Below, piece by piece: positions 36,752-51,369 of a stretch of 64,000 bases of DNA. This stretch comes from an uncultured bacterium. GTDB lineage: Bacteria; Patescibacteriota; Minisyncoccia; Phycocordibacterales; UBA9973. The DNA lies in assembly GCA_903894565.1 (NCBI GenBank), contig CAITQP010000005.1:28971-92970 (forward strand). Direction: 5' to 3'. Below the pieces are notes generated by a model. That model searched no databases. It was not told the DNA's origin and saw only the letters and a program-made list of their open reading frames with translations. Numbering within the stretch: the stretch's first letter is position 1; the number at the start of each line of letters is the position of its first letter. Position numbers and translations under genes: made by a program.

Positions 36752-36778
36752 TTAGTAACATTTATTTTGAACGATTTT

Positions 36779-38080
36779 ATGGCAAAGAAAAAAGAAGTAA
36801 AAAAGAAGATTGTTGCGAAGAAGCCTGCACCGAAAAAGGCAGTTGCAAAGGCTGTCAAAAAGCCAGCCAAAAAAGCTGTTGCCAAAAAGGCTCCAGCTCC
36901 AAAAGTGGCGAAGGCGAAGAAGGTTGTCGTCAAAAAACCAGCTCGTCAAAAGGCGCAAAAGGGTAGTGGTGCAATCGCTGCTGGACGTGTCGCTGCCAAG
37001 AAACAGCAGAAAGGCAAAATGACACCAACAGATCGCGCGGATGATCTCGTCATGAAAGGCAAGAAGCGTGGCTTCGTAACGTTCGACGAAATTTTGCGTT
37101 CGTTCCCAAACATTGAGACAAACATTGAATTTCTTGATGATTTGTACGAGAAGCTCACCACGGCTGGTATCGATGTGCTCGAAGGAGGAAATTTGCTCGA
37201 CATTGATCTTGCTGAAGGAGATCACAAGGACGAGAAGAGTGATTCGAGTTATGACTCAATCCAAATGTATCTCAAAGAGATTGGACAGTACCCGCTCATT
37301 CAAGCAGGTGAGGAAAAAGAACTCGCGAAGCGAATTCAAGCTGGAGATATGGAGGCCAAGAATTTGCTTGCACGTGCGAACCTTCGTCTCGTTGTTTCGA
37401 TTGCAAAGAAATATGTTGGACGCTCTAGTGATTTGACACTCCTTGACCTTATTCAAGAAGGAAACCTCGGTCTCTTTAAAGCCGTAGAAAAATTCGACTG
37501 GACCAAAGGATACAAATTCTCGACATACGCAACATGGTGGATTCGTCAATCAATTACTCGAGCGCTCGCCGACCAATCCCGCACGATTCGTATTCCTGTG
37601 CATATGGTTGAAACGATTTCAAAGTACAAGCAAGTCTACCGCCGTCTCGCGCAAGACCTCGGTCGTGATCCACTCGCCGAAGAAATCGCAACTGAAATGG
37701 GTATTGATGTTGAGAAAGTCCACGTCATTGAAAATATTTCTCAGGATACTGTATCGCTCGAACAGCCAATTGGTGACGATGATGAGAAATCAACTCGTGG
37801 AGAATTTATCGCCGATGACAAGATTCTTCGTCCAGACCAAGAAGCATCACGACGAATTCTTACGGATCAGATTCGTGGAGTGCTCGAAGAACTCTCACCA
37901 AAGGAGCGTAAGATTCTTGAGATGCGTTATGGTCTCTCCGATGGGGTACAGCACACACTCGAAGAAGTGGGCACAGAGTTCGGTGTGACGCGCGAACGTA
38001 TTCGTCAGATTGAGGCGAAGGTACATGAGAAGCTCCGCACACATGAGCGCATTCTCCGATTGAAGAATTATTTTGATTAA
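36779..38080 (+). CDS. rpoD: RNA polymerase sigma-70 factor with a histone-H1-like Lys/Ala-rich N-terminal extension
   Basis: Regions 1.2-4.2 present ([57 protein letters not shown]). N-terminal ~65 aa [49 protein letters not shown]. Confidence 0.9.
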
Positions 38081-38092
38081 AGCGTAGCGAAA

Positions 38093-38130
38093 GTACGAAA
38101 AAACCCTTCTATAGAAGGGTTTTTTCGTAC
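38093..38130 (+). terminator. Intrinsic terminator after rpoD
   Basis: GTACGAAAAAACCCTTCT-ATA-GAAGGGTTTTTTCGTAC. Confidence 0.65.
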
Positions 38131-38153
38131 TAATTGCGCATTTTGGTATTATA

Positions 38154-38165
38154 TGGTATTATAAT
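38154..38165 (+). promoter_or_regulatory. Extended -10 promoter (TGGTATTATAAT) for the proABC operon
   Basis: TGnTATTAT / TATAAT about 30 nt upstream of the proA ATG 38194. Confidence 0.4.
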
Positions 38166-38193
38166 AACGTATTTGTTCTCACCCAATGTCCGT

Positions 38194-39432
38194 ATGCACA
38201 CAGTGAAAGAACAAGCCGAAAAGGCAAAACAGGCATCTCATATTTTGCGCAAAGCTTCGAGCACCGCAAAAAACGAGTTTCTTCGAGTGCTCGCCACAGA
38301 GCTCGAACAGAAGCTTCCACTCATTCTTTCCGAAAACCAAATTGATCTCGACGAGAATCCAACCATCACAAGCGCTATGCGAAAGCGTTTGCTTTTGAGT
38401 GAGCAAGGACTTACCAGTATCATTGCTGGTGTTCGCGAGATGCTCGACTTTCCAGATCCTGTTGGATCAATCGTCAAAGATACTGTTCGCCCTGATGGGC
38501 TCCGTATCAAAAAGGTCCGCGCTCCGATCGGCGTCATTGCCTGTATTTTTGAGTCACGTCCAAACGTCATCATCGATGTCGCTATTTTGTGTGTCAAAAG
38601 TGGCAACGCCGTCATCGTTCGTGGTGGAAAGGAGGCAGCACACTCAAATACGATTTTGCTCTCATGTATCGAAACTGCACTTAAGGCCTCAGGTCTCCCA
38701 ACAGAATCTGTACAGCAACTCGAGGATCGTCGTCACGAAGCAGTCTATGAACTCGTCGCCATGGAAGAATATCTCGACCTCGTCATTCCGCGTGGACGCA
38801 AAGAGCTCATTGATGCAGTGTCGGCACACTCACGTGTGCCTGTCATGAAGCACTCTCGCGGACTCTGTCACTGTTATATCGATGTTGACGCAAATCCCGA
38901 GAAAGCAGTCGCGATTGCGGTGAACGCAAAGACTTCAAACCCAGCAACCTGTAACTCAATTGAAACGATTCTTGTGCACAAAGATATTGCGGACAGTGTT
39001 ATGCCCGAATTACTCAAACAATTGTTCGCTAAGAATGTTGAAGTGCGTGGTGATGAAAAAACTCGCGCATACTCACCTTTGTGTAAGGTTGCGACCGAAG
39101 ATGATTGGGCGGAAGAATATCTCGATCTCGTGGTCTCAATCAAAATCGTGGATTCATACGCCGATGCAATTCATCATATTGATACATACAGTTCACATCT
39201 TACAGACTCAATCGTGACTGAAAACAAAACAACAGCACAAACATTTGAGCTCGATATTGATAGTGCCTCAGTGCTCGTGAATGCTTCAAATCGATTGACC
39301 GACGGAGGAGTGTTCGGTCTCGGTGGCGAAATTGGTATCAGTACGTGTCGTATTCACATGCGCGGACCAATGGGGCTCGAAGACCTTACGGTAACGAAAT
39401 ATATCGTCGAGGGCGACGGTCATATTCGTTAA
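38194..39432 (+). CDS. proA: Gamma-glutamyl phosphate reductase
   Basis: Aldehyde-dehydrogenase-like ProA pattern. Start at MHTVKEQ. Confidence 0.85.
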   Translation: MHTVKEQAEKAKQASHILRKASSTAKNEFLRVLATELEQKLPLILSENQIDLDENPTITSAMRKRLLLSEQGLTSIIAGVREMLDFPDPVGSIVKDTVRPDGLRIKKVRAPIGVIACIFESRPNVIIDVAILCVKSGNAVIVRGGKEAAHSNTILLSCIETALKASGLPTESVQQLEDRRHEAVYELVAMEEYLDLVIPRGRKELIDAVSAHSRVPVMKHSRGLCHCYIDVDANPEKAVAIAVNAKTSNPATCNSIETILVHKDIADSVMPELLKQLFAKNVEVRGDEKTRAYSPLCKVATEDDWAEEYLDLVVSIKIVDSYADAIHHIDTYSSHLTDSIVTENKTTAQTFELDIDSASVLVNASNRLTDGGVFGLGGEIGISTCRIHMRGPMGLEDLTVTKYIVEGDGHIR

Positions 39433-39436
39433 TCCT

Positions 39437-40513
39437 ATGAACAAAGACCTCTACATCATTAAAATTGGAACGAATGCGTTGGTGAATACTGACGGCACGA
39501 TTATTGATTCGAGTGTTACTGAAATTTTGCAATCTGCAAAAGAAGCGATGAGTCGGGGAGTCAATGTGCTTGTCGTTACAAGTGGGGCAGCTCGTCTCGG
39601 AAGACTTGCTCTCAATGATCTTGCTACTCCCAAAAAAATTGCAACTTGTGTCGGTCAGCCGATTTTATTCAGCGCTTGGCAGGAACGCGCAAAAAAAGAA
39701 AATATTATACTCGCTGAATTTTTAATTTCACGTTCTTCAATCATCCGCAAAGAACTATTCATGTTGCTTCGCGATACATTCAATTGTTTGTTTGAGCGTG
39801 GCATTATTCCTGTCGTGAACGAAAACGATGTGATGGTCAACGGCACGAACCTTTCGTTTGGAGAGGGAGGCAACGACAGCCTCGCCCAAGTCCTTGCTGT
39901 CGCACTGAAAGCGACCAAGCTCATAATCGTCTCAGATATTGAAGGGCTGTGTGATAGTGATCCACGAGAGAATCCAAATGCAAAGGTGATCGCCGAGGTT
40001 GATGACATTACGGAGAAATTCATTAGTCTTTGTTCAAAGAGTAAATCGTCACACAGTACTGGAGGAATGCTTTCGAAGCTTAAATCAATTCGTATTTGTA
40101 CAGCAGTAGGTATTGAGTCATACATTGTGAGTGGCTTAAAATATGGAAATCTAACAAAGGTTGTTCGTGGAGAACAAGCTGGAACAAAGTTTCTTCCTCG
40201 GCCACTCGGTAAAAAAGTTACCGAACGTGAACGATGGATATTGGCTGCAAAAAGTTCGACAGGTTCACTTGTTATCGACAAAGGGGCAGTCGAGGCTGTT
40301 CAAAATGGGGCGAGCCTGCTCGCTGTTGGTGTGAAGAAAGTCTACGGATATTTTAATGAAAAAGAGGTGATCGAGATCGTAGACCAAAAAAATCAAGGCA
40401 TCGCTTTTGGTATTGTTGATATGTCGTGTGTCGATATCGACACCATGCTTCGCACGAAAGACATGCACCAAAAATTACTCGTGCATGCGAACAATTTATT
40501 TTTGTTAAAATAA
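39437..40513 (+). CDS. proB: Glutamate 5-kinase (with PUA domain)
   Basis: Amino-acid kinase fold (IIKIGTNAL..., VVTSGA) and a C-terminal PUA domain. Confidence 0.85.
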   Translation: MNKDLYIIKIGTNALVNTDGTIIDSSVTEILQSAKEAMSRGVNVLVVTSGAARLGRLALNDLATPKKIATCVGQPILFSAWQERAKKENIILAEFLISRSSIIRKELFMLLRDTFNCLFERGIIPVVNENDVMVNGTNLSFGEGGNDSLAQVLAVALKATKLIIVSDIEGLCDSDPRENPNAKVIAEVDDITEKFISLCSKSKSSHSTGGMLSKLKSIRICTAVGIESYIVSGLKYGNLTKVVRGEQAGTKFLPRPLGKKVTERERWILAAKSSTGSLVIDKGAVEAVQNGASLLAVGVKKVYGYFNEKEVIEIVDQKNQGIAFGIVDMSCVDIDTMLRTKDMHQKLLVHANNLFLLK

Positions 40514-40522
40514 AATTCCAAT

Positions 40523-41332
40523 ATGAAAAACCCACAACATATTTGTATTATCGGTGCTGGAGCAATGGGCGGAGCTATCGCGGGGGCTCTTGCTATCGGT
40601 GCAGTGAAGAATGATTGGAAGATTACGGTGATCGCTCGACATATGGAAAAGCTCGAGCAGCTAAAACGTGCTCATCGCTTGATTGGCATTTCAACTCAGT
40701 ACGATTCACTTACACATGCAGATATTGTGATTATTGCGGTTAAGCCGCAGTCATTTGATGAGTTGGCAAGTGAGATATCTTCAGCCTTGAATAAGAATGC
40801 GTTACTTGTCTCAGTAATGGCTGGCCGTTCGATCGGCAGTATAGCCAAAGTTTTTTCAAACAAGCGTATTGTTCGTGCTATGCCAAACCTCGGTGCACAA
40901 TTCTTTGAGTCAATGACTATCTGGACGGGAAGTGGTTTAACAAAGAAAGATACGACATTTACAAAAAAAGTTTTGTCGTCTATCGGTGAAGAATTGTGTG
41001 TCACAAATGAAGACCTTGTCGACAAAGCAACCGCAGTGTCAGCGAGTGGCGTTGGATTTTTGGCATACATGACTGAGGCCTATATCGAGGAGACTGAAGC
41101 ACTTGGATTTTCTCGCGAAGATGCGGAACGTGTTGTGCTCCAAACACTCAAGGCGACAAATACTATTTTACAAAAGAAAGAAAAAACGCCTGAGCAACTT
41201 CGTGTCGCGGTAACCTCGAAGGCAGGAACGACGGAAGCTGGACTTTCGGTTTTGATGGGTAAGTCACTTCGCTCGATTTTCGAGAGGACATTCAAAAAAG
41301 CATACCAGCGTGCAAAAGCGCTTGCACGATAA
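40523..41332 (+). CDS. proC: Pyrroline-5-carboxylate reductase
   Basis: Rossmann motif IGAGAMGGAI and the P5CR C-terminal dimerisation domain. Confidence 0.85.
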   Translation: MKNPQHICIIGAGAMGGAIAGALAIGAVKNDWKITVIARHMEKLEQLKRAHRLIGISTQYDSLTHADIVIIAVKPQSFDELASEISSALNKNALLVSVMAGRSIGSIAKVFSNKRIVRAMPNLGAQFFESMTIWTGSGLTKKDTTFTKKVLSSIGEELCVTNEDLVDKATAVSASGVGFLAYMTEAYIEETEALGFSREDAERVVLQTLKATNTILQKKEKTPEQLRVAVTSKAGTTEAGLSVLMGKSLRSIFERTFKKAYQRAKALAR

Positions 41333-41408
41333 AATGAGTACCGTATAATAGAAGGGAAACATGCCCAATCGGGTAATTTATTAGTAACGTTTCGAAAAAA
41401 TAAATTAT

Positions 41409-41663
41409 ATGATGAAAAAATGTATGTGTATGCCTGCGAAGGTCGGTGGTCTCCTTGTTTTCGTCGGAGGTTTGAACTGGGGTCTTGTTGGTCTCGGTAT
41501 GTTCTTCGGTGGTAATTGGAACCTCGTCACTTTGCTCCTTGGCTCATGGCCAAAGCTTGAGGCTCTCGTCTACGTTCTCGTAGGTGTTGCCGCTGTTATG
41601 ATGCTCTTCGGATGCAAGTGTGCAAAATGCAAGGCTTGTATGACTGGTGCTGCACAGCAGTAA
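41409..41663 (+). CDS. DUF378-like small membrane protein (GLNWGLVG motif) with a Cys-rich C-terminus
   Basis: LVFVGGLNWGLVGLGMFFGGNWNLVTLLLG... then CKCAKCKAC. Confidence 0.55.
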   Translation: MMKKCMCMPAKVGGLLVFVGGLNWGLVGLGMFFGGNWNLVTLLLGSWPKLEALVYVLVGVAAVMMLFGCKCAKCKACMTGAAQQ

Positions 41664-41680
41664 TTGACGGTTTTGCTTAG

Positions 41681-41719
41681 AAAAAGGCCGGTTTTCGCTC
41701 CGCGAAAACCGGCCTTTTT
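41681..41719 (+). terminator. Intrinsic terminator
   Basis: AAAAAGGCCGGTTTTCGC-TCC-GCGAAAACCGGCCTTTTT. Confidence 0.65.
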
Positions 41720-41742
41720 CAATGGATTTCGGAGCAATTTTG

Positions 41743-41751
41743 TGCTATAAT
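41743..41751 (+). promoter_or_regulatory. Extended -10 promoter TGCTATAAT for the GT2 gene
   Basis: TGnTATAAT, 14 nt upstream of ATG 41766. Confidence 0.4.
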
Positions 41752-41765
41752 ACAAAAATACCCTT

Positions 41766-43013
41766 ATGGAGCAAGTGTTTAGCTTTATATTCTATATTTT
41801 CACCTTTCTCGCCGTTTACGTCGAGGTTTTTTTTCTTGTCACATACCTTGAGCGCCGCAAAGACATCGTTGTTCGACTCGATGATAAGCCCAATCGTGTT
41901 TACCCAAGCGTAACGGTTATTGTTCCGTGCTGGAACGAACAGACAACTGTTCAAGGTACAGTTGAATCATTGCTCGCGCTTGATTACCCAAAAGACAAAA
42001 TCAAAATAATGCTTGTTGATGACGGCTCTACCGATAATACATGGAATGTATTACAACAATTTGCGCATACTCCTAATATCGAAGTGATCCACAAGGAGAA
42101 TGGTGGCAAACATACAGCAATGAATCTTGGTATCGAAAAAGCAACAACAGAAATGATTGGTTGTTTGGATGCTGACTCATATGTAACACCATCCGCTTTG
42201 AAGCGAATGATTCCATATTTTGATGAGCCAGGTGTGATGGCGGTTTCTCCTTCGATTATTGTCAAAGATCCAAAACGACCGATTGAGTGGGCACAAAAAA
42301 TCGAATACCAGCTCTCCGTATATATTAAAAAAATGCTTGGGTTGATGAATGGTATTCACGTAACCCCTGGGCCATTCTCTATCTATCGTATCGAAGTATT
42401 CCAGCAACTTGGCCCGTACCGCGAAGCTCACAAAACTGAAGATATGGAGATTGCGTATCGTATGCATGAGGCTGGTATGCGTATCGAGCAGTGTCATGAT
42501 GCACAAGTCTTTACCAAGACTCCGCCAACTGCTGTAGCGCTGTACAAACAACGCAAGCGTTGGATTTATGGTTTTATCAATAACACTATTGATTATCGCC
42601 GTTTGATATTTAAAGAAAAGTACGGCGCGTTCGCGCTCTTCACGATTCCAGCAGGAGTTGTTTCGATTTTTTCCGCAATATATCTGTTCATTTTTATGAT
42701 CTATACGTTTGTAAAATTTATTACAAATAAATTTGTTCAATTTCAAGCCGTTGGCGTTCATGTGAGTACCGTTGTTCAACCACAGCAATTTAGCTGGTTT
42801 TATGTAAGTACTCAAGCTGTATTTCTCATCACAGTCCTTTTGTATGGATTCGTATTTACTTCGCTTATGATTGGTGCAAGGATGTCGACGGGGAAGTGGA
42901 AGCCGTCATTCGCCATGGTGTGGTATATCGCAATCTATAGTATTATTGCACCACTGTGGATTATGCGGGCTGTGATTAATACCGTGTTCAGACGTGAGAC
43001 GGCGTGGAGATAA
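41766..43013 (+). CDS. Processive family-2 glycosyltransferase (polysaccharide synthase; PgaC/cellulose/chitin-synthase-like)
   Basis: N-terminal TM, GT-A core with DDGSTD, DAD, and Q(R)xRW motif (KQRKRW), then 3-4 C-terminal TM helices. Confidence 0.8.
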   Translation: MEQVFSFIFYIFTFLAVYVEVFFLVTYLERRKDIVVRLDDKPNRVYPSVTVIVPCWNEQTTVQGTVESLLALDYPKDKIKIMLVDDGSTDNTWNVLQQFAHTPNIEVIHKENGGKHTAMNLGIEKATTEMIGCLDADSYVTPSALKRMIPYFDEPGVMAVSPSIIVKDPKRPIEWAQKIEYQLSVYIKKMLGLMNGIHVTPGPFSIYRIEVFQQLGPYREAHKTEDMEIAYRMHEAGMRIEQCHDAQVFTKTPPTAVALYKQRKRWIYGFINNTIDYRRLIFKEKYGAFALFTIPAGVVSIFSAIYLFIFMIYTFVKFITNKFVQFQAVGVHVSTVVQPQQFSWFYVSTQAVFLITVLLYGFVFTSLMIGARMSTGKWKPSFAMVWYIAIYSIIAPLWIMRAVINTVFRRETAWR

Positions 43014-43032
43014 CAGAATTAATTTTATATAT

Positions 43033-43716
43033 ATGAATCAAAACAATACAACAAATGTAGAACATGATACTGGCTGGTCAAAATACCTCGTTGTTTTTCT
43101 TATTACCCTTGGTATTTTTGTAACTATTTTTTATGTAAGTGATGTATTAACCAAGCGAAAACTCGCTGAGCTTAATACTATTCAGAATAATATTTCTGTA
43201 GACCTTCTTTCAGCAGAAACTCAGTATTCGCTCCTTGGTGAATTAGATTGTTCTCAGGTAACAAGTACGGTACTTTCTGACCAATTGAATGATCTTTCAA
43301 AAAAGATTGAGTATCTTGAGAATTCGAGTGGTAAATCTGACGAACTTACACAGCTTGAAAAACAATATTCATTGCTTGAAATTAAAGACTACCTTCTCAT
43401 GAAAGAGATCACGAATCGTTGTGGTCAGAAATCAGTTTTTATCTTGTATTTCTATACAACAAGTGACAACTGTAGTGAGTGTGTGAAGCAAGGCTATGTA
43501 CTTACCGATCTTCGACAAAAATATCCAGCGCTCCGCGTGTACTCATTCGACTATGGATTGAACCTCTCTGCAGTTGAGACACTCATCAAGATTTATGATA
43601 TTAAGGACACCGAACTTCCAGCGCTTGTGTCTGATAGGCAGGTGTATACGGGATTCCATAGTGTTGCAGATATCGAAAAACTGATTCCGAAGCTGAAGGC
43701 GACGTTGCCGAAATAG
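43033..43716 (+). CDS. Membrane-anchored thioredoxin-like protein with CxxC (CSEC) motif
   Basis: TM anchor (YLVVFLITLGIFVTIFYV), then ...VFILYFYTTSDNCSECVKQGYVL... resembling a TlpA/ResA-like fold. Start at ATG 43033. Stop TAG. Confidence 0.5.
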   Translation: MNQNNTTNVEHDTGWSKYLVVFLITLGIFVTIFYVSDVLTKRKLAELNTIQNNISVDLLSAETQYSLLGELDCSQVTSTVLSDQLNDLSKKIEYLENSSGKSDELTQLEKQYSLLEIKDYLLMKEITNRCGQKSVFILYFYTTSDNCSECVKQGYVLTDLRQKYPALRVYSFDYGLNLSAVETLIKIYDIKDTELPALVSDRQVYTGFHSVADIEKLIPKLKATLPK

Positions 43717-43831
43717 GGAACTAATGCACAGATTTGTACCTTAATATACTTTCTATTTGCTATAATAGAAGGGTCAGATGTCCTAGGGGGCTTCTATTGA
43801 CTTTTTAGTATAATTAAGGTATAATATAAGT

Positions 43832-44122
43832 ATGAATAATATCGAACAGTTCGTAGACGAGCTCGTTTCGGCAAAAGGGTTCGATGAAAAAGATCCTGAA
43901 GTCCTCGCAGAAATAAAACGCGGGGTAATGAGTCGTTTAGAAGATAGAATCAATGCAATGGTGCTCGCCAATTTGCCAGAAGATTCTCTTGATGATTTCA
44001 ATAAAGTTCTCGATGCTGATAATGAGGAGCAGATGATTTCATTCGTCAAAAAATACGTTCCTGATCTCGATGAAAAGGTCGCAGGCGAAATGCTTGCTTT
44101 TAGAAGTGCTTACCTAGGATAA
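43832..44122 (+). CDS. Small acidic hypothetical protein (96 aa)
   Basis: ORF with a ribosome-binding-like context; no motif recognised. Confidence 0.4.
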   Translation: MNNIEQFVDELVSAKGFDEKDPEVLAEIKRGVMSRLEDRINAMVLANLPEDSLDDFNKVLDADNEEQMISFVKKYVPDLDEKVAGEMLAFRSAYLG

Positions 44123-44127
44123 TTTTT

Positions 44128-47100
44128 ATGTCAAATAAAGCACCCGCACCCGCACCCGCACCCGCACCTACACCTGCAAACGAAAAACAGGTTTTTAAGG
44201 CTGCTATCGTAAACACCACGAAGATGGTGGAAGCGCATATTACTGATGTTGCGGACGCTCGCATGACGGCCTCAAAAGAGGACCGAAACAAGAATTGGTT
44301 TAAACGAAAGATTGATAAAATTTGGAAGCATGATCTCATGCAGGAATTTTATCGTCAACGTGAAATATCAAAAGTTCGAAAGGAAATTGCGGATACGGGC
44401 AATTTTTATGCTGGAGACAAAGAGATCATTGATTCAAACGAAGCCAAGGAAGCGATGCTTGCAATTACAGATCGTTTTACCGACGAGCTTCGTGACGAAA
44501 TGTTGACAAAGGAAGAGAAAGATTCGATTGATGAGAATTCGCGTTCCAGCCAGGAAATGAATGATCTCGTACGCAAATATGCTGATACAACGCATGTAAT
44601 GTCAGATCAGGCATTTGAGGAAGAAAAGAAGCGTATAATCGCAAATCTTGACCCAACGTACAAAGACAAACGTGAGGTATATGCCGACAATATACTTGAG
44701 ATAGCAAAAAACGTTCGCCAAGCGGTTGCCAACGGTCAGAAGCTTGAAGAGCTCGACTTTGACGTTGATATTACACTCGGAAGTACCCGTGGACGCATGC
44801 AAACAGCAGCGCACCACAATGCCTTTGATAAGGGTGTTGAAAAACTACAGAATTCAAAACTCGGGAAGTTCCTTGTGAATACTCCAGGTGCTATCGCGCT
44901 CTCAGCAGCAGTTTATTCAGTGGGCAAATATGCATTTACAAAAGTTGCACGTACTGATGCAGCAAAAATTGCGAGTTTTGGTGGTACGGCAGTGATCTCA
45001 GGAACTGTTGCGGCTACAAAAGAAGCTGCACGTTTGAACCGCGAGCGTGCTCAGCATCATCGCGAAAAAGCCAAAGGAGTTACATTTGAGGGTGACGACA
45101 TGAAGCGTCGTAACTCAATGAATACTACTTCATACGAAACACAAAAAGCTACGGAAGTCACCACACTGCTTGCGGGTGATCTCGCGAAGGTTGAAGCTGG
45201 CAATATGCAGCCTGCTGACCTTGATATGATTATCGCGCACATCGCAAATCTTCGCGCTCGAAAGTCGCTTGGAGAAGATCGTCATATTGACCTTGTTACT
45301 TACTCTAGTTTAAAGATGATGGAGAAAGAGGGTAAAGAGCTCGACAAAACCGAGGCTAAATTGGTTGTGGCTCTTCGTAAAGGAGTCGAATCTGGAAAGA
45401 TAGTTTTCGACAAAGAGACAGATGATTTTGATACATATCTGAGTCAGCAAATATATACGCAAGAACGTGCGTTGCTTGGTGGTGAATCTGGTATCGAAAA
45501 AAAGGATCAAGCGTTTACTAAAATGAAAGCGAAGCGCACTGCTTGGGCTTTTGTGAAGTCAGCAACACTTGGTGCCGGTATCGGGGCTGTATTCCAAGAA
45601 GCGCATGCCCTCCTTTCTGACGATCTCGACGGAGTACTTGAGGGTATGAGTAAACACTTACATCAGGGCACGACAGGTGGCTTTACAGAGCACGCTACAG
45701 CGCTTGAGGCACTGCGTCGCCACTTCAACCACGAAGACGTTCCTCGACTTGCAGATACGGGTGCAGGTCACGAGTATCTTATGAATGGTGGTGCAACAAC
45801 AATGCACACTCCAGATGGAGCAACGGTTACCGTGAATCCAGATGGTACATACAATATCATGCGAGGTAATGACGTGCTTGAGAAGAATCTTCCACTAGAG
45901 TTTGATAAGACGACTGGAGATCTTCTGCCAACATCCCGTGCATTGCTTCAAAAAGATGGAATTTTTGCGAACTTCAGCCAGACGACACAGCATGGTAGTG
46001 GCCCAATGAGTGCGGAGGATTACATCAAGAGTCACAATGGTGATTTTACCAAAGTCCACCGACATACTTTCTATGACAATAATACTGCTGATAAACCAGA
46101 CTTGAACGAAAAACGCGAGTATTGGGGCGGCGAGAATGGAACCGGTGTCAATGCGAAAGGAAACTATGAATTTAGAACGGGCGTAAAGGCAGGTGGATCA
46201 TTCCATGGGAATGATGCATTCGATGTACCTGAAGCAATCAAAAAAGGCGGAATCGTAAAGATGGCATTCTCGGTCACTCGTGGGACTCAGCATGAAGTTA
46301 TCATGCTTCCAGTGTCATCTGTTGATGAACACGGTAATGCAATATTTGAAATCGACAAGGACAGTGCTCTCGGTAAGGATTTGTTCGAAGTGAACGCGGA
46401 TGGACATGCCGTTTTCAAAGGCCAATTTGCCGAACTTATTGAAGACTCAGGCAAAGCAGCTGATGGAGCAGAGAACATCAATATCATTGCAACGCACATC
46501 GGACTTGGACAAGCTGATACTATTGTTGGAGGGGTAGACAAAGTCGTGCCACATCTTAAACTGGATATTCCTGGTTCGTGGGATTATGAAATGCCAATGG
46601 TTGTTCCAATCTTGGGACGTCGTCCACTTGAATCAGGCAAGGCGCCTGCTAAAAAGAAGCGACCAAATGAGGACCCACACGGACCAGCTGATCCAAACGC
46701 ACCAACGCCACATGGACCTGACGGCGTACCGCTCAAAGCTAAGGATAAACTTCCTCCAAGTAAGTTTACAATTCGAAAATTCGTTGGAGAAAAGCCTGAG
46801 GACAAATATTCTGGTCTTACACAGGACTTAGAAGTATATGAGAAAGCTCGATTGGCTGGTGGTTCTGAATTTTCTGTAAATAGTAAGGATTTGAAATCAA
46901 CAGGCTTCAAAGAAATTTTAAGAAAGCACGCTCAAGTGACTAAAACACCAGGATCGGATGAAGAGACGTATGCCGTTACGCTTGATGCACGCGGAAAAAT
47001 TGCTGATGCATTATATAAGGCAAATCAGGCTGAGGTCAAAAGAAGTAATCTAAAAGTCCAAGCAATGGGTCACAATCCGCTTTTGGAAGATCTCGATAAG

Positions 47101-47547
47101 TATGCCCACGAGACTATGAAACCTGTGTCAAAAGAAGATTTTACAAAAAAATATCTTCCAAAGTTGATTCAAGAAGCATTCCGCGGATATGGAAATATCG
47201 AGGTGCCTGATAATGCATTTTTGTCCTCGAAGTCACGTGTTCTGCCTGCGAATGAATTCGTCGGGAACCTTGATATCAAAGTGAAGCCTTCGAAAGGAAG
47301 CAAAAAGGTTGATGCCAAGATCGACAATCTTAAATTCATAATGAAGGACGGCAAATTGGAGGTAGCGAAAGGATATACATTTACGAATCCAGATGAAACG
47401 AAGGATGTTCGCGATACTGTAAATAAGGTATTAACGGACTTCGGAAGCGTTTTCGACAAGGATCTTTCAGGCCTATTCGGTGAAAAACTTAAGAGCTTGA
47501 AGATGAATGGAGGTAACGTTGATGTTCTTACAACCAAGAAAGTATAA
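44128..47547 (+). CDS. Giant (1139 aa) membrane-associated hypothetical protein with N-terminal (Ala-Pro)n repeat and a Pro-rich linker
   Basis: MSNKAPAPAPAPAPTPA..., hydrophobic helices near residues ~250-320 and ~515-540, linker KKKRPNEDPHGPADPNAPTPHGPDGVP. No known domain recognised. Confidence 0.65.
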   Translation: MSNKAPAPAPAPAPTPANEKQVFKAAIVNTTKMVEAHITDVADARMTASKEDRNKNWFKRKIDKIWKHDLMQEFYRQREISKVRKEIADTGNFYAGDKEIIDSNEAKEAMLAITDRFTDELRDEMLTKEEKDSIDENSRSSQEMNDLVRKYADTTHVMSDQAFEEEKKRIIANLDPTYKDKREVYADNILEIAKNVRQAVANGQKLEELDFDVDITLGSTRGRMQTAAHHNAFDKGVEKLQNSKLGKFLVNTPGAIALSAAVYSVGKYAFTKVARTDAAKIASFGGTAVISGTVAATKEAARLNRERAQHHREKAKGVTFEGDDMKRRNSMNTTSYETQKATEVTTLLAGDLAKVEAGNMQPADLDMIIAHIANLRARKSLGEDRHIDLVTYSSLKMMEKEGKELDKTEAKLVVALRKGVESGKIVFDKETDDFDTYLSQQIYTQERALLGGESGIEKKDQAFTKMKAKRTAWAFVKSATLGAGIGAVFQEAHALLSDDLDGVLEGMSKHLHQGTTGGFTEHATALEALRRHFNHEDVPRLADTGAGHEYLMNGGATTMHTPDGATVTVNPDGTYNIMRGNDVLEKNLPLEFDKTTGDLLPTSRALLQKDGIFANFSQTTQHGSGPMSAEDYIKSHNGDFTKVHRHTFYDNNTADKPDLNEKREYWGGENGTGVNAKGNYEFRTGVKAGGSFHGNDAFDVPEAIKKGGIVKMAFSVTRGTQHEVIMLPVSSVDEHGNAIFEIDKDSALGKDLFEVNADGHAVFKGQFAELIEDSGKAADGAENINIIATHIGLGQADTIVGGVDKVVPHLKLDIPGSWDYEMPMVVPILGRRPLESGKAPAKKKRPNEDPHGPADPNAPTPHGPDGVPLKAKDKLPPSKFTIRKFVGEKPEDKYSGLTQDLEVYEKARLAGGSEFSVNSKDLKSTGFKEILRKHAQVTKTPGSDEETYAVTLDARGKIADALYKANQAEVKRSNLKVQAMGHNPLLEDLDKYAHETMKPVSKEDFTKKYLPKLIQEAFRGYGNIEVPDNAFLSSKSRVLPANEFVGNLDIKVKPSKGSKKVDAKIDNLKFIMKDGKLEVAKGYTFTNPDETKDVRDTVNKVLTDFGSVFDKDLSGLFGEKLKSLKMNGGNVDVLTTKKV
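44140..44163 (+). repeat. Hexanucleotide tandem repeat (GCACCC) x4 encoding the (Ala-Pro)n stretch
   Basis: gcacccgcacccgcacccgcaccc, in frame (2 codons per unit). Confidence 0.8.
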
Positions 47548-47570
47548 GGTACATAGATAGACACACAAAT

Positions 47571-47599
47571 AAAAAACCGGCACTTTGTGCCGGTTTTTT
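47571..47599. terminator. Bidirectional intrinsic terminator between the giant ORF and tRNA-Thr
   Basis: AAAAAACCGGCAC-TTTG-TGCCGGTTTTTT. Confidence 0.7.
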
Positions 47600-47609
47600 A
47601 TTTAACTTG

Positions 47610-47682
47610 AGCCGCTTCTCGGACTCGAACCGAGGACCCACGCTTTACAAAAGCGTTGCTCTACCAACTGAGCTAAAGCGGC
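47610..47682 (-). tRNA. tRNA-Thr (anticodon UGU), 73 nt, no encoded CCA
   Basis: Reverse complement GCCGCTTTAGCTCAGTTGGTAGAGCAACGCTTTTGTAAAGCGTGGGTCCTCGGTTCGAGTCCGAGAAGCGGCT. 7-bp acceptor stem, D stem GCTC/GAGC, anticodon stem ACGCT/AGCGT with loop TTTGTAA, T arm CTCGG-TTCGAGT-CCGAG. Confidence 0.85.
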
Positions 47683-47715
47683 TTGGTCGGTCGCGTGAGC
47701 GACCGAATCATCCTA

Positions 47716-48135
47716 CTATATTTCTTCTTTTTTTGCTAGCCCCGCCTCACCACCTTCTTTACGAATCGCATCTGTTACTTTGTCTTTGTGTGCACGGATG
47801 TTTTTGAGGAATCCTGATGGTCGTCCGCCTATAGGGTGGTGTCCATTCTTTGTGATCAGACGAGTGAGTCGATCTTTCACTTTGCCGTCAGTTTTTCGTA
47901 CCCAAGTTGAGATGAGAATCCACGCCTTGAGTGTAAGAAGCACGATGTGGTGAACAGTAAACTTGGCAAATTCGATGAGACGCATACGAATGCTTTCGAT
48001 AGAAAGATCATGCCAATCTGCTTCCTCATATGATCCGGTAATAATTTTACCGGTACGGAAAAGCCAGACCTTGTGCCCAATGAGAGCGAAAGCGACTGCT
48101 ACTGAAAGGAAAAAGAGAATAATAGTGAATACCAT
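47716..48135 (-). CDS. Hypothetical membrane protein (139 aa)
   Basis: N-terminal TM helix (IILFFLSVAVAFALI) and a second hydrophobic segment. No motif recognised. Stop TAG. Confidence 0.5.
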   Translation of the reverse strand: MVFTIILFFLSVAVAFALIGHKVWLFRTGKIITGSYEEADWHDLSIESIRMRLIEFAKFTVHHIVLLTLKAWILISTWVRKTDGKVKDRLTRLITKNGHHPIGGRPSGFLKNIRAHKDKVTDAIRKEGGEAGLAKKEEI

Positions 48136-48156
48136 GTGAGTATTGTACCGCGTCTA

Positions 48157-48933
48157 TTACGCAGTTGCTACACGAACGAATCCGACGAGTGTCGCACCAT
48201 TTGCTGCGAGGAGCTTCTCGATCGTTTGGTCAGGATTCTTGATGAATGGCTGGTCAAGCAATGTGCGTTCTTTGAAGAATGTATCAAGCTTTCCTGCGAG
48301 CATCTTTTCTTGAATATCTGCTGGTTTACCTGATTTTGCAACCTCCTCCGCGAAGAGTGCTTTGACATTCGTCTTTGCATCTTCAGGAACATCGGCGCGA
48401 GTCTTGTATTCAGGATTCATTGCAGCAACATGCATCGCGATGTCTTTTGCGACCTCCTGATTGCCTCCACTGAGACCAACCATTGTGCCAACGCGTCCAT
48501 CGTGGACATAGACACCGACGACAGGAGCTTCCATAACAACGATTTCTCCGAGCTGAAGATTCTCTCCAAGCTTTTGGATACCAGTTGAGATGAGTTCAGG
48601 AGCCATTGCTTCAGCGGCTGCCTTACCTTTTTCGATTGCCTCGTTTGCAAGTGTTGTTGCGATTGCAACGAAGTCTGCATTTTTAGCAACGAAATCTGTC
48701 TCACAGCGGAGTGTCAAAAGGAGAGCGAATCCGTTCTTTTCAGCTTTGACGATAACGCCAGCAGTTGCCTCACGGTCAGACTTTTTGGCTGCAATTTCTG
48801 TTGATTTCTTTTTGAGGATGAGGAGCGCTTTTTCCATGTCTCCGCCCGCCTCTTCAAGTGCCTTTTTGCACTGCATAACTGAAACGCCCGTCTTGTCTCG
48901 CAATTCTTTGACCTGTTCCGTTGTGATAGCCAT
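48157..48933 (-). CDS. tsf: Elongation factor Ts
   Basis: MAITTEQVKELRDKTGVSVMQCKKALEEAGGDMEKALLILKKK UBA-like N-terminus plus EF-Ts core. Confidence 0.9.
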   Translation of the reverse strand: MAITTEQVKELRDKTGVSVMQCKKALEEAGGDMEKALLILKKKSTEIAAKKSDREATAGVIVKAEKNGFALLLTLRCETDFVAKNADFVAIATTLANEAIEKGKAAAEAMAPELISTGIQKLGENLQLGEIVVMEAPVVGVYVHDGRVGTMVGLSGGNQEVAKDIAMHVAAMNPEYKTRADVPEDAKTNVKALFAEEVAKSGKPADIQEKMLAGKLDTFFKERTLLDQPFIKNPDQTIEKLLAANGATLVGFVRVATA

Positions 48934-48949
48934 AGATATAGTTTTTTAA

Positions 48950-49645
48950 TTACTGCTTGTAAGCATCGGCAAGATGTTTGACGATGAATTCGATTGCTGC
49001 ACGTGATGCATCGTTGGCGAGGATTGGGTAGGTGATTGTAGTGAGGTCACAGTCTGTACTACCGAGGGCGATGACTGGGATACCGAGACGCTGAGCTTCG
49101 AGGACTGCGATTTCTTCCTTCTTAGGGTCTACGATGAAGAGTGCATCTGGAAGTCCTTTGAGAGAAACGATACCACTGAAGAGTTCTTCCATCTTCGCAA
49201 CTTCACGCGCGATGAGGAGCTGTTCTTTCTTGGTGTATTTTTTCTGAAGGTCTCCAGAAATTTTGGCTGCACGGAGTTCTTCGAGACGAGTGAGACGCTT
49301 TTTGATCTCAGGGAAGTTTGTAAGGATACCTCCAACCCAGCGACTTGTAACGAATGGAAGATCGAGACTTTCTGCGGCTGTGCGAGTAGCATCTTTTGCT
49401 TCTGGCTTCGTACCGACGAAGATAACAGTCTTGCCTTTCTGGCCGAGAGTCTTCATGTACTCAGCAGCTTTTTGGAGCATGACTTCTGTCTGCTCGATAT
49501 CAATGATGTCGACCTTGTTTTTGGTGCCGAACAAATGTCGGGCGACCGATGGGTGACGGCGAGTTCGGGAATACCCGAAGTGAGCGCCGACACTAAAGAG
49601 CTCCTTGAGGAGCGGGGATGCACTGGTGTTCTCTGACATAGACAC
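48950..49645 (-). CDS. rpsB: 30S ribosomal protein S2
   Basis: LLKELFSVGAHFGYSRTRRHPSVARHLFG... canonical S2. Confidence 0.9.
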   Translation of the reverse strand: MSMSENTSASPLLKELFSVGAHFGYSRTRRHPSVARHLFGTKNKVDIIDIEQTEVMLQKAAEYMKTLGQKGKTVIFVGTKPEAKDATRTAAESLDLPFVTSRWVGGILTNFPEIKKRLTRLEELRAAKISGDLQKKYTKKEQLLIAREVAKMEELFSGIVSLKGLPDALFIVDPKKEEIAVLEAQRLGIPVIALGSTDCDLTTITYPILANDASRAAIEFIVKHLADAYKQ

Positions 49646-49906
49646 AATAGCTTGGTTTCTCGGTTCATGACCGGAAAACCTTAATTATAAAGCCGAGCGT
49701 AGCTCGGCGCGATCCGTTTTTAAGCATTTCAGCTTGGCATTTCTGCCGATACAGGGAAGGTGACTAGTGTCGGGACTCCCCACGGAAAGCCCAATTACTA
49801 TAGCAGAAAAATTGGTTTTGGGCAAATGTCTGATGCCAGCATCAGTTCATTTGTAAAAGGCACTTTTTTCCTGTAGTATCCGTATATAGCATAATCTAAA
49901 AAACAG

Positions 49907-51364: not shown

Positions 51365-51369
51365 GTTTT

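What the first reader, a model, noticed from the sequence alone, without database searches (positions are those of the whole stretch)
41409..47547. Envelope-related island next to tRNA-Thr: DUF378, processive GT2 synthase, membrane CxxC thioredoxin-like protein, and a 1139-aa orphan membrane protein
Five co-oriented genes lie between proC and the 3' end of tRNA-Thr; tRNA 3' ends are classic insertion sites. A GT2 with D,D,D and QRKRW (QxxRW) motifs plus C-terminal TM helices is the hallmark of processive beta-polysaccharide synthases (PgaC, cellulose, chitin, hyaluronan type). It is paired with a membrane-anchored CSEC thioredoxin-fold protein and a giant protein with an N-terminal (AP)n repeat, internal TM helices and a Pro-rich linker. 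Together these could form an uncharacterised exopolymer or surface-structure system. No export or polymerase accessory genes are recognisable, so the combination is not a known operon type.
Basis: partly seen in the sequence, partly recalled or inferred. Interest (0 to 1): 0.55.

Follow-up and report, generated by a model that had tools for sequence, protein, structure and literature searches.

The report
Two unrelated modules, not one island
The five genes are two unrelated units in an ultra-small (Patescibacteria) bacterium: a deeply conserved sugar-polymer synthase paired with a membrane thioredoxin-like protein, and a swappable two-gene cassette encoding a giant protein of unknown fold with its small acidic partner.

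Summary

The five genes are not one system or one island.

Module A is (DUF378)-GT2-thioredoxin-like. It sits at the same place in a housekeeping backbone (rpoD ... tRNA-Thr-tsf-rpsB-proS-mreB). GT2 directly precedes the thioredoxin-like gene in 79/79 species-level genomes. DUF378 is upstream in 54/74.

Module B is DUF5663 plus the 1139-aa protein. It exactly fills the break in nucleotide synteny with the closest relative (43704-47566). None of 80 module-A loci carries the giant's core or DUF5663. None of 80 giant-homolog loci has GT2, Trx or DUF378 within 6 kb.

The giant is not an orphan. Its 820-aa core defines a family of about 1200 clusters. DUF5663 lies immediately upstream in 73 of 75 informative loci. 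There is no Pfam model and no solved structural relative.

The C-termini are swappable: GT2-like in about 60% of homologs, GT9-like in a few, others unidentified. The window's copy has a non-enzymatic one.

No integrase or tRNA repeat is present. The functions of both modules are inferred, not shown.

The parts
41409..41663 (+). DUF378 small membrane protein (84 aa) with Cys-rich N- and C-terminal tails (CMCM...; GCKCAKCKAC). It is a frequent but not universal upstream partner of the GT2.
   Evidence: Pfam PF04070 at 39.9 bits, cutoff 25. The Cys-rich tails are conserved in L002, L006, L007 and L008. It lies upstream of GT2 on the same strand in 54 of 74 informative loci.
41680..41720 (.). Perfect 19-bp inverted repeat (terminator-like hairpin) between DUF378 and GT2. 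It is followed by a TATAAT at 41745-41750, 15 nt before the GT2 start codon.
   Evidence: (I1), the sequence, and conservation in L009. The terminator and promoter functions are inferred from consensus only.
41766..43013 (+). Membrane-embedded GT2 glycosyltransferase (415 aa) of the processive-synthase type. It has one N-terminal TM helix, a GT-A domain with D/DxD/TED/QRKRW motifs, and three C-terminal TM helices.
   Evidence: Pfam Glycos_transf_2 at 2.7e-36. NCBIfam PgaC_IcaA at 171 bits over 6-411, below the 422-bit cutoff. Motif positions. D85, D135, D137, E225, D226, Q262, R263, R265 and W266 are invariant in 37 orthologs. PDB profile hits. Hydropathy.
43033..43716 (+). Membrane-anchored thioredoxin-fold protein (227 aa). 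It has a TM helix at about aa 18-36, a helical region, then a beta-alpha-beta-alpha-beta-beta-alpha domain with invariant C147-S-E-C150 and P196. C73 and C130 are also invariant. It is the obligate downstream partner of the GT2.
43704..47566 (.). Variable cassette. It is the segment missing from the nucleotide synteny with the closest relative, L009, which carries a different 2.0-kb insert here. It occupies the slot between the Trx-like gene and the terminator/tRNA-Thr 3' end.
   Evidence: blastn synteny blocks are 36002-43703 and 47567-53000. Slot contents differ in L002 and L006-L008. The slot has a median size of 1.0 kb and reaches 9.7 kb. Cargo elsewhere is listed.
43797..43825 (+). Promoter-like TTGACT-17-TATAAT, ending 6 nt before the DUF5663 start codon (a leaderless-type arrangement).
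   Evidence: (11 of 12 matches) and the sequence. This is a consensus match only.
43832..44122 (+). DUF5663 protein (96 aa, pI 4.26). It is the obligate upstream partner of the giant protein family.
   Evidence: Pfam PF18908 at 33.7 bits, cutoff 23.7. It is immediately upstream in 73 of 80 homolog loci, 70 of them with a gap of 50 nt or less. Five of the other seven loci lack upstream DNA. It is also upstream in L002-L004. It is the only recurrent neighbour.
44128..47547 (+). Giant protein (1139 aa).
- aa 1-18: non-conserved (AP)n tail.
- aa 19-838: conserved core, made of a helical region to about aa 515 (with three marginally hydrophobic Gly/Ala-rich helices) and a beta-rich domain at aa 520-835. 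It ends in the conserved P..IPI..RRPLE.G motif.
- aa 839-880: Pro-rich linker.
- aa 881-1139: lineage-specific C-terminal module.
46768..47544 (+). C-terminal module of the giant (aa 881-1139). It is shared with 7 of 31 homologs and with the unrelated 600-aa slot protein of L009. Most homologs carry a GT2-like domain here instead.
   Evidence: 31% identity over 247 aa to L009:10888-12687, E 1e-31. C-terminal classes. AF2 confidence is low here.
47567..47603 (.). Perfect 17-bp inverted repeat with flanking A/T runs. It is a bidirectional terminator-like hairpin between the giant gene and tRNA-Thr, and forms the right boundary of the cassette.
   Evidence: (I3), the sequence, and the resumption of synteny at 47567.
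47609..47682 (-). tRNA-Thr(UGU). It is conserved at this backbone position in relatives.
   Evidence: ARAGORN. The same tRNA is present in L002, L006, L007, L008 and L009.
47716..48135 (-). Backbone gene, not part of either module: a conserved small membrane ORF (139 aa) upstream of tsf.
   Evidence: Homologous ORFs of 121-139 aa sit at the same position in L002 and L006-L009. There are no Pfam or NCBIfam hits.

Best explanation
The region holds two functionally independent modules. Both are embedded in a conserved housekeeping backbone of a Patescibacteria (CPR) genome. The nearest named relatives are labelled Nomurabacteria or Paceibacterota.

Module A (41409-43716):
- It is a vertically inherited envelope unit.
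- Its invariant core is a membrane-embedded GT2 of the BcsA/PgaC/IcaA/HAS class, translationally adjacent to a single-pass membrane protein with a thioredoxin-fold CxxC domain.
- A Cys-rich DUF378 micro-protein usually sits upstream.
- Inferred mechanism: the GT2 polymerises a beta-linked hexose or HexNAc glycan from a UDP-sugar on the cytoplasmic face. It then extrudes the chain through its own TM channel, without a lipid carrier. This would suit a genome with minimal biosynthetic capacity.
- The thioredoxin-like partner probably acts as an obligatory accessory subunit. It could couple synthase activity or assembly to thiol-disulfide state, or serve structurally in the way PgaD, IcaD or BcsB do.

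Module B (43704-47566):
- It is a self-contained two-gene cassette sitting in a flexible slot next to the tRNA-Thr 3' end.
- It probably arrived by homologous replacement between the conserved flanks, not by integrase-mediated insertion.
- DUF5663, a small acidic protein, is inferred to bind the conserved 820-aa core of the giant protein as a chaperone or adaptor.
- The core (N-terminus cytoplasmic, with weakly hydrophobic Gly/Ala helices and a beta-rich domain) acts as a membrane-associated platform. It presents an exchangeable C-terminal module through a Pro-rich linker.
- In most relatives that module is a glycosyltransferase-like domain. In this genome it is a non-enzymatic alpha/beta module.

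Shown: gene content, motifs, the thioredoxin fold, synteny, co-occurrence and domain swapping.
Inferred: polymer synthesis, the redox role, DUF5663 binding, membrane association and any host-interaction role.
For: Module A:
- GT2 motifs are present and invariant.
- The match to PgaC/IcaA is collinear over the full length.
- Only processive synthases align through the TED/QxxRW region.
- The thioredoxin fold is confirmed, with an invariant CxxC and Pro.
- GT2 directly precedes the Trx-like gene in 79/79 loci, and the same backbone is present in at least 57 loci.
- The Trx-like protein is found in at least 582 GTDB species.

Module B:
- The synteny break falls exactly at 43704-47566.
- DUF5663 is upstream in 73 of 80 loci, and five of the other seven lack upstream DNA.
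- No other neighbour recurs.
- No GT2, Trx or DUF378 lies within 6 kb in 80 giant-homolog loci.
- None of 80 module-A loci has the giant's core or DUF5663. L009 shares only the giant's C-terminal module.
- The core at aa 19-838 is conserved while the C-termini vary.

Transcription signals: a separate promoter-like element precedes DUF5663, and terminator-like hairpins bound the units.
Against: - No glycan product, redox activity or protein-protein contact has been shown.
- The GT2 scores far below the PgaC/IcaA equivalog cutoff (171 against 422 bits). No deacetylase or porter genes are nearby.
- The topology of the Trx-like domain (inside or outside the cell) is unresolved, because flanking charges are balanced.
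- DUF378 is missing from about a quarter of loci and is separated from GT2 by a hairpin.
- For the giant, the hydrophobic segments are below usual TM thresholds. It may therefore be soluble.
- An identical 13-mer (TATAATAGAAGGG) precedes both DUF378 and DUF5663 in this genome only. This could mean local co-regulation of the two modules.
Confidence: 0.75

Rival explanations
1. All five genes form one exopolymer or surface-structure system, carried on an island integrated at the tRNA-Thr 3' end.
For: The genes are co-oriented and adjacent. The same five (plus one extra gene) are adjacent in L002. An identical 13-mer precedes DUF378 and DUF5663. Most giant homologs carry a GT2-like domain, which is a thematic link to glycosylation.
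Against: In 80 module-A loci none has the giant's core or DUF5663. L009 shares only the giant's C-terminal module. In 80 giant-homolog loci none has GT2, Trx or DUF378 within 6 kb. The three-gene unit lies in the conserved backbone. There is no integrase and no tRNA repeat. Separate promoter- and terminator-like signals are present.
Confidence: 0.04
2. The GT2 is not a polymer synthase. It is instead a membrane glycolipid or lipid-carrier glycosyltransferase, for example a processive diacylglycerol glycosyltransferase or a polyprenol-phosphate sugar transferase. The Trx-like protein is then an unrelated envelope redox enzyme that merely shares an operon.
For: There are Pfam Glyco_transf_21 and Glyco_tranf_2_3 hits. 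The score is well below the PgaC/IcaA cutoff. PcManGT (6yv7), a membrane GT2 that I recall as non-polymerising with a cellulose-synthase-like fold, aligns over 46-264. No polysaccharide modification or export genes are present.
Against: TED and QRxRW are invariant. These motifs are characteristic of processive synthases, by established knowledge of BcsA, HAS and CHS. ArnC-, GtrB- and DPMS-type enzymes align only with the N-terminal half. The 79/79 adjacency with the Trx-like gene argues for a functional pair.
Confidence: 0.15
3. Module B is a contact-dependent, polymorphic effector. The giant protein would be anchored N-in/C-out by its three hydrophobic helices. Its beta-rich domain and Pro-rich linker would span the wall. 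The exchangeable C-terminal enzyme (GT2-like, GT9-like or others) would be delivered to the host cell on which the epibiont lives. DUF5663 would be its export chaperone.
For: - The boundary between core and variable region is sharp, at a conserved RRPLE.G motif followed by Pro-rich linkers.
- The C-terminal domains are diverse and of cytoplasmic-enzyme type.
- The charge distribution fits an N-in/C-out topology. The loop at aa 300-470 has pI 8.7, and aa 505-838 has pI 5.4.
- The N-terminal extensions are hydrophilic and lack signal peptides.
- The cassette sits in a hypervariable slot. Its C-terminal module is only 31% identical to that of a sister genome whose backbone DNA is 85-88% identical.
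- The partner is small, acidic and tightly coupled, as secretion chaperones are.
Against: The hydrophobic helices are weak. No secretion-system or immunity gene is linked. The window's own C-terminal module has no recognisable enzymatic or toxin domain. The GT2-like domain is the majority and probably ancestral state, which also fits a housekeeping enzyme. There are no PADLOC or PHROG hits.
Confidence: 0.25
4. Module A matures or modifies the Cys-rich DUF378 protein, by analogy with glycocin clusters. The analogy is recalled from memory: a Cys-rich peptide plus a GT2 S-glycosyltransferase plus thioredoxin-like oxidoreductases, as in the sublancin or glycocin F clusters.
For: The Cys-rich tails of DUF378 are conserved in this lineage. 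A GT2 and a CxxC thioredoxin-fold protein are adjacent. DsbA-like genes lie next to DUF378 in L006 and L008.
Against: The GT2 is a TM protein with QxxRW and TED motifs, collinear with PgaC/IcaA, unlike soluble SunS-type enzymes. There is no C39-peptidase ABC exporter. DUF378 is an integral membrane protein and is absent from 20 of 74 loci.
Confidence: 0.04

Closest known systems
PNAG synthase PgaC-PgaD (E. coli) and IcaA-IcaD (staphylococci)
   Same: It is a roughly 410-aa GT2 with N- and C-terminal TM helices and D/DxD/(T)ED/QxxRW motifs. This is the best NCBIfam match, collinear over nearly the whole model. Like these systems, it works next to small membrane partner proteins.
   Different: It scores 171 bits against a 422-bit equivalog cutoff. 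No PgaB/IcaB deacetylase, PgaA porin or IcaC is present. The partner is a thioredoxin-fold CxxC protein (and DUF378), not PgaD or IcaD. The locus lies in a housekeeping gene cluster, not a biofilm operon.
Cellulose synthase BcsA-BcsB and hyaluronan/chitin synthases
   Same: These are the only solved structures whose sequences align with the GT2 through the TED/QxxRW region. The inferred mechanism is the same: coupled synthesis and translocation.
   Different: The window's GT2 is much smaller and has no PilZ domain. There is no BcsB-like periplasmic partner. The product is unknown.
Membrane-anchored extracytoplasmic thioredoxin-like oxidoreductases (ResA/TlpA/StoA type, DsbA-like)
   Same: It has a single N-terminal TM anchor and a thioredoxin fold, with CxxC at the start of helix alpha-1 and a conserved Pro before beta-3.
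   Different: It has no significant sequence match to any Pfam or NCBIfam thioredoxin family. PDB profile E-values are 0.16 or worse. It has an extra helical region of about 95 aa with two more invariant Cys. It is obligately linked to a GT2, which I know of for no characterised member of this class. Its topology is unresolved.
Polymorphic toxin/effector proteins with conserved N-terminal delivery regions and swappable C-termini (CdiA, Rhs, LXG with small helical partner proteins)
   Same: The giant has a conserved large N-terminal region, a sharp conserved boundary motif, a linker and variable C-terminal domains. A small helical partner gene is tightly coupled to it.
   Different: There is no sequence or fold similarity to any of them. 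The partner lies upstream and is conserved whatever the C-terminus, so it is not an immunity protein. No secretion system or immunity gene is linked. The commonest C-terminus is a GT2-like domain, not a nuclease or deaminase.

Membership tests
Processive membrane-embedded GT2 synthases (BcsA/PgaC/IcaA/HAS/CHS/NodC class) | GT-A catalytic domain with a nucleotide-binding D and a DxD motif | tested here: met
   DDGS85 and DAD135 are present. D85, D135 and D137 are invariant in 37 orthologs.
Processive membrane-embedded GT2 synthases (BcsA/PgaC/IcaA/HAS/CHS/NodC class) | TED (catalytic base) and QxxRW (acceptor-binding) motifs | tested here: met
   TED224 and QRKRW262 are present. E225, D226, Q262, R263, R265 and W266 are invariant. 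Only BcsA, HAS, CHS and PcManGT align across this region.
Processive membrane-embedded GT2 synthases (BcsA/PgaC/IcaA/HAS/CHS/NodC class) | TM helices flanking the GT domain that form a glycan channel | tested here: inconclusive
   Four hydrophobic helices (7-25, 298-316, 351-369, 382-400) are collinear with the PgaC_IcaA model at positions 3-395 of 407. No structure of this protein was predicted, so a channel has not been shown.
Processive membrane-embedded GT2 synthases (BcsA/PgaC/IcaA/HAS/CHS/NodC class) | Makes a polymer | not testable with these tools
   This needs a biochemical assay.
PgaC/IcaA equivalog (PNAG synthase, TIGR03937) | Score at or above the curated cutoff of 422.3 bits, with pgaABD/icaDBC-type partner genes | tested here: not met
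   The score is 171 bits. The neighbouring genes are DUF378 and a thioredoxin-like protein. No deacetylase or porin is in the locus.
Thioredoxin-fold thiol-disulfide oxidoreductases | Thioredoxin fold (beta-alpha-beta-alpha-beta-beta-alpha) | tested here: met
Thioredoxin-fold thiol-disulfide oxidoreductases | CxxC at the N-terminus of helix alpha-1, and a conserved Pro preceding beta-3 | tested here: met
   C147, C150 and P196 are invariant in 36 homologs. Their positions match the model.
Thioredoxin-fold thiol-disulfide oxidoreductases | Significant sequence match to a curated thioredoxin, DsbA or TlpA family | tested here: not met
   No Pfam or NCBIfam hit. The best PDB profile E-value is 0.16.
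Thioredoxin-fold thiol-disulfide oxidoreductases | Redox activity and cellular compartment | not testable with these tools
   Charges flanking the TM helix are balanced (sequences). No topology predictor was available.
Pfam DUF378 (PF04070) | Score above the gathering threshold | tested here: met
   39.9 bits against a cutoff of 25.
Pfam DUF5663 (PF18908) | Score above the gathering threshold | tested here: met
   33.7 bits against a cutoff of 23.7.
tRNA-linked integrative genomic island | Integrase or recombinase gene in the island | tested here: not met
   None of the five proteins has such a domain. Cargo sampled in the same slot of five other genomes also has none.
tRNA-linked integrative genomic island | Direct repeat of the tRNA 3' end at the distal boundary | tested here: not met
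   No such repeat is found in 41300-47750.
tRNA-linked integrative genomic island | Presence/absence polymorphism among close relatives | tested here: met
   This holds only for 43704-47566. The DUF378-GT2-Trx part is conserved.
Polymorphic toxin/effector systems | Conserved N-terminal region with variable C-terminal domains | tested here: met
Polymorphic toxin/effector systems | Recognisable toxin domain, a cognate downstream immunity gene, and a linked secretion apparatus | tested here: not met
   The window's C-terminus has no Pfam hit. A terminator and the tRNA follow the gene. No neighbour other than DUF5663 recurs.

The most novel reading that the evidence does not exclude
DUF5663 plus the giant protein would be a previously unrecognised, Patescibacteria-wide delivery platform. 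The roughly 820-aa core of novel fold inserts into the membrane through weakly hydrophobic Gly/Ala helices. It displays, or translocates into the host cell, an exchangeable C-terminal enzyme module. DUF5663 acts as its dedicated chaperone. This would be a new kind of contact-dependent effector system used by epibiotic ultra-small bacteria. Separately, the GT2/thioredoxin-like pair would be a redox-gated, carrier-independent glycan synthase that builds a core envelope polymer of this lineage.
Probability: 0.2. Interest if true: 0.85.

Novelty: new variant of a known kind. Interest (0 to 1): 0.55.

Why it matters
Patescibacteria have tiny genomes and live attached to host cells. How they build their envelope and manipulate hosts is largely unknown.

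- **The GT2/thioredoxin-like pair.** It is embedded next to rpoD, tsf and rpsB in hundreds of species. It is a strong candidate for a core envelope glycan pathway that needs no lipid carrier. I know of no described synthase system with this partner type.
- **The DUF5663/giant pair.** It defines a large family of about 1200 clusters. The giant has no Pfam model and no structural relative. Its exchangeable enzyme-like C-termini sit in flexible genome slots, which is the kind of architecture expected for host-interaction factors.
- **Testability.** Both modules give concrete hypotheses that can be tested in the few cultivable Patescibacteria-host systems.
- **Annotation.** Adjacency in a single genome suggested a five-gene system that comparative data do not support.

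Tried and rejected
- **Repeat search for a copy of the tRNA-Thr 3' end, 41300-47750.** None was found, so the integrative-island model was dropped.
- **PDB sequence-profile searches.** The whole family (A1) gave no hit at E of 1 or below. DUF5663 (A4) and the C-terminal GT-like domain (A6) gave nothing significant.
- **afdb50 fold search.** The library was unavailable.
- **Word-indexed homolog search with the giant's C-terminal 259 aa.** It returned nothing and the search was wasted. The L009 relationship came from local comparison instead.
- **PHROGs and PADLOC scans.** There was no phage or defence affiliation.
- **Literature searches for DUF5663, DUF378 with Saccharibacteria, DUF378 alone, and Patescibacteria with glycosyltransferase/thioredoxin or polymorphic toxin.** Nothing bears on these genes.
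- **A DHH-phosphoesterase reading of one C-terminal class (L101, L121, L124, L125, L138, L162).** It rests only on motifs I recognised by eye. Pfam did not confirm it in either member scanned, L101 and L125, so it stays a lead.
- **Tandem giant paralogs.** None was found in the same locus.
- **The second giant ORF after a second DUF5663-like gene in L165.** It is unrelated to this family.

Full report
**1. What is in the sequence**

The five + strand ORFs are real. They lie at 41409-41663, 41766-43013, 43033-43716 (an alternative GTG start at 42994 overlaps the GT2 gene), 43832-44122 and 44128-47547. tRNA-Thr(UGU) is at 47609-47682 on the minus strand, so its 3' end faces the end of the giant gene.

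The wider backbone runs rpoC-dnaG-rpoD-proA-proB-proC upstream. Downstream it runs tRNA-Thr, a small membrane ORF, tsf and rpsB on the minus strand, then proS, mreB, mreC and tgt. GC is about 0.44 across the region, with a dip to about 0.36 at 42600-43500.

The exact protein occurs on public contigs of up to 146 kb. The nearest named relatives are MAGs labelled Nomurabacteria, Paceibacterota, Parcubacteria or 'uncultured Saccharibacteria'. The organism is therefore a Patescibacteria (CPR) bacterium.

**2. The individual proteins**

*DUF378.* It matches Pfam at 39.9 bits against a cutoff of 25. In this lineage it carries Cys-rich tails (CMCM...; GCKCAKCKAC) that are conserved in relatives.

*GT2.*
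- It matches Glycos_transf_2 at 2.7e-36.
- Its best NCBIfam match is PgaC/IcaA, collinear over residues 6-411 and model positions 3-395 of 407. The score of 171 bits is far below the 422-bit equivalog cutoff.
- It has DDGS85, DAD135, TED224 and QRKRW262. These residues are invariant in 37 orthologs.
- It has one N-terminal and three C-terminal hydrophobic helices.
- With a family profile, only BcsA, hyaluronan synthase, chitin synthase and PcManGT (an archaeal membrane mannosyltransferase that I recall as cellulose-synthase-like) align beyond the DxD into the TED/QxxRW region. ArnC, GtrB-like, DPMS and PglI match only residues 47-155.
- The GT2 therefore groups with processive synthases, not with lipid-linked housekeeping transferases.

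*The 227-aa protein.*
- It has no Pfam or NCBIfam hit but more than 1157 homologs at 53-95% identity.
- C73, C130, C147, C150 (the CxxC) and P196 are invariant.
- Its AF2 model shows a TM helix, a helical region, and then the beta-alpha-beta-alpha-beta-beta-alpha order of a thioredoxin fold.
- Sequence-profile hits to PDB are individually insignificant (E of 0.16 or worse). The top six are all thioredoxin-fold proteins, and in the two alignments printed the match falls on the CxxC.

*The 96-aa protein.* It matches Pfam DUF5663 at 33.7 bits against a cutoff of 23.7. Its pI is 4.26.

**3. The giant protein is not an orphan**

- It has 32 homologs in the word-indexed search. A profile search finds 1203 cluster representatives at 50% identity, 749 of them at E of 1e-30 or better.
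- Conservation covers residues 19-838 only. It ends at a conserved P..IPI..RRPLE.G motif.
- AF2 models this core with pLDDT of 70-95. It is a helical region to about residue 515, followed by a beta-rich domain at 520-835.
- The 'TM helices' are three Gly/Ala-rich segments. Their median best 19-residue Kyte-Doolittle scores across homologs are 1.24, 1.25 and 1.47, so membrane insertion is possible but unproven.
- N-terminal extensions in homologs are hydrophilic and lack signal peptides. The (AP)n repeat lies in this non-conserved tail.

After the core comes a Pro-rich linker and a variable C-terminus. Among 112 family members:
- 68 carry one shared domain. It aligns with the GT2 family by hhalign at probability 61% and E 8e-5 over 230 columns, with the DxD and (G/T)ED motifs in register. 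A few members match Pfam GT2 models weakly.
- At least three carry a GT9-like domain at 33-38 bits.
- Others are unidentified.
- The window's copy belongs to a minority class of 9 with a different, non-enzymatic-looking module.

**4. Co-occurrence: the decisive test**

*Starting from the thioredoxin-like protein.*
- At least 582 GTDB species encode it.
- In the best 80 loci, the GT2 is immediately upstream in 79 of 79 informative cases, at a median of 35 nt between hit ends.
- DUF378 is upstream in 54 of 74 informative loci.
- The backbone rpoD ... tsf-rpsB-proS-mreB is conserved.
- None of these 80 loci contains the giant's core or DUF5663.

*Starting from the giant.*
- In 80 metagenomic loci, a DUF5663 gene lies immediately upstream in 73, and 70 of those have a gap of 50 nt or less.
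- Five of the remaining seven have no upstream DNA.
- The same pairing is seen in L002, L003 and L004.
- DUF5663 is the only recurrent neighbour, in 72 loci against 8 or fewer for any other family.
- None of the 80 loci has GT2, Trx-like or DUF378 within 6 kb.

The five genes therefore split into two independent modules. Their juxtaposition here, and in L002, is lineage-specific.

**5. The 'island'**

- Nucleotide synteny with the closest relative, L009, runs over 36002-43703 (85% identity) and 47567-53000 (88% identity). It breaks exactly over 43704-47566.
- In L009 the slot holds a 600-aa ORF. It shares only the window giant's C-terminal module, at 31% identity over 247 aa (E 1e-31). It has no DUF5663 and no core.
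- In other relatives the slot is empty or carries other cargo. The median distance from the Trx-like gene to tsf is 1.0 kb. Cargo includes copper-resistance genes, an acetyltransferase, a histidine kinase, and Gly-rich or ice-binding-like surface proteins.
- tRNA-Thr is conserved at this position.
- No integrase or tRNA-derived repeat is present.

It applies only to the 3.9-kb DUF5663-giant cassette, and nothing indicates integrase-mediated insertion.

proABC, upstream of DUF378, is also lineage-specific. proA and proB were found only in L009, and proC only in L009, L010 and L019.

**6. Transcription signals (consensus only)**

- A perfect 19-bp hairpin follows DUF378 (41680-41720), and a TATAAT sits 15 nt before the GT2 start codon.
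- The GT2 and Trx-like genes are 19 nt apart.
- A TTGACT-17-TATAAT ends 6 nt before the DUF5663 start codon.
- DUF5663 and the giant are 5 nt apart.
- A perfect 17-bp hairpin follows the giant.
- These signals fit three transcription units.
- An identical 13-mer, TATAATAGAAGGG, occurs only upstream of DUF378 and upstream of DUF5663. Chance expectation is 0.02 matches. It is absent from relatives.

**7. Interpretation**

*Module A.* It most likely encodes a carrier-independent, synthase-type glycan polymerase/exporter with an obligatory thioredoxin-fold membrane partner. The polymer and the redox role are inferences. I know of no described PgaCD, IcaAD or BcsAB-type system with this pairing.

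*Module B.* It is a self-contained pair of unknown function. I favour a membrane-associated platform, with DUF5663 bound to the core, that presents exchangeable C-terminal modules.

- It is open whether this platform acts on the producer's own cytoplasmic face or is surface-exposed or delivered to a host.
- The charge distribution (pI 8.7 for aa 300-470, pI 5.4 for aa 505-838) and the Pro-rich linkers fit an N-in/C-out topology.
- The weak hydrophobicity of the helices and the lack of linked secretion or immunity genes argue for caution.

**8. Verdict**

- The single-system and island interpretation is not supported.
- Two conserved, uncharacterised gene pairs emerge. Each is of moderate to high interest for Patescibacteria biology.

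Noticed in passing
window 41409-41663; L002:4016-4273, L006:4340-4639, L007:4285-4581, L008:6326-6619: The DUF378 proteins of this lineage carry Cys-rich N- and C-terminal tails (MCxxC...; FGCKCxKCxxC...). I do not recall such tails in Firmicutes DUF378 proteins. They may bind metal or be redox-active, possibly in connection with the adjacent thioredoxin-like protein.
   Followed up: partly
window 38134-41332 (proA, proB, proC): A complete proABC proline-biosynthesis cluster sits between rpoD and DUF378. Among the 80 related loci, proA and proB were found only in L009, and proC only in L009, L010 and L019. An amino-acid pathway in a Patescibacteria genome is unusual, and this one looks like a lineage-specific acquisition. 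In L006 and L008 a DsbA-like gene occupies this position instead.
   Followed up: partly
window 41344-41356 and 43761-43773: An identical 13-mer, TATAATAGAAGGG, is part of a 30-nt repeat of 77% identity. It occurs only twice in the 64-kb window, 65 and 71 nt upstream of the DUF378 and DUF5663 start codons. Chance expectation is 0.02 matches. It is absent from all related loci, so it may be a duplicated promoter or regulatory element.
   Followed up: partly
L009:10888-12690: In the closest relative, the slot next to tRNA-Thr holds a 600-aa protein. It has an E/K-rich coiled N-terminus, a homolog of the window giant's C-terminal module (31% identity), and a His-rich tail (HDSHGGHHDTHGPGHAEHHGG). 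It has no Pfam, PHROG or PADLOC hit.
   Followed up: partly
L007:6737-10865; L058:10767-13052; L047, L063, L049 slots: The same tRNA-Thr-proximal slot carries other cargo in other genomes. Copper-resistance genes (CsoR, CopA, DsbD_2, cupredoxin) occur twice. Gly_rich_2 proteins, ice-binding-like plus DUF7507 surface proteins, and a HAMP histidine kinase also occur. No integrase was seen. This is a flexible-genome hotspot without recognisable mobility genes.
   Followed up: partly
window 47716-48135 (minus strand); L002:12595-12990, L006:7617-8036, L007:10951-11316, L008:9567-9959, L009:12861-13280: A small membrane protein of 121-139 aa lies immediately upstream of tsf and is conserved at this position across relatives. 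It has an N-terminal TM helix and a basic C-terminus, and matches no family.
   Followed up: no
L165:10088-10423 and 10555-14643; also L154, L160, L164, L094: Extra DUF5663-like genes occur near some giant homologs. In L165 a second DUF5663-like gene precedes a different giant ORF of at least 1363 aa that is unrelated to this family by hhalign. DUF5663-like proteins may therefore partner several giant-protein families.
   Followed up: partly
L101, L121, L124, L125, L138, L162 (C-terminal regions of giant homologs): One C-terminal class shares motifs that resemble DHH phosphoesterases (DLDG.SC ... DTS ... DHH). L125 additionally has a weak WipA-like phosphatase match, below the Pfam threshold. 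Pfam did not confirm the DHH reading in either member scanned (L101, L125).
   Followed up: partly
L039 and L055 (record titles): Two contigs labelled Gammaproteobacteria and Burkholderiales carry the Patescibacteria-type synteny rpoD-DUF378-GT2-Trx (L055 also tsf-rpsB-proS-mreB). They are probably mis-binned contigs.
   Followed up: no
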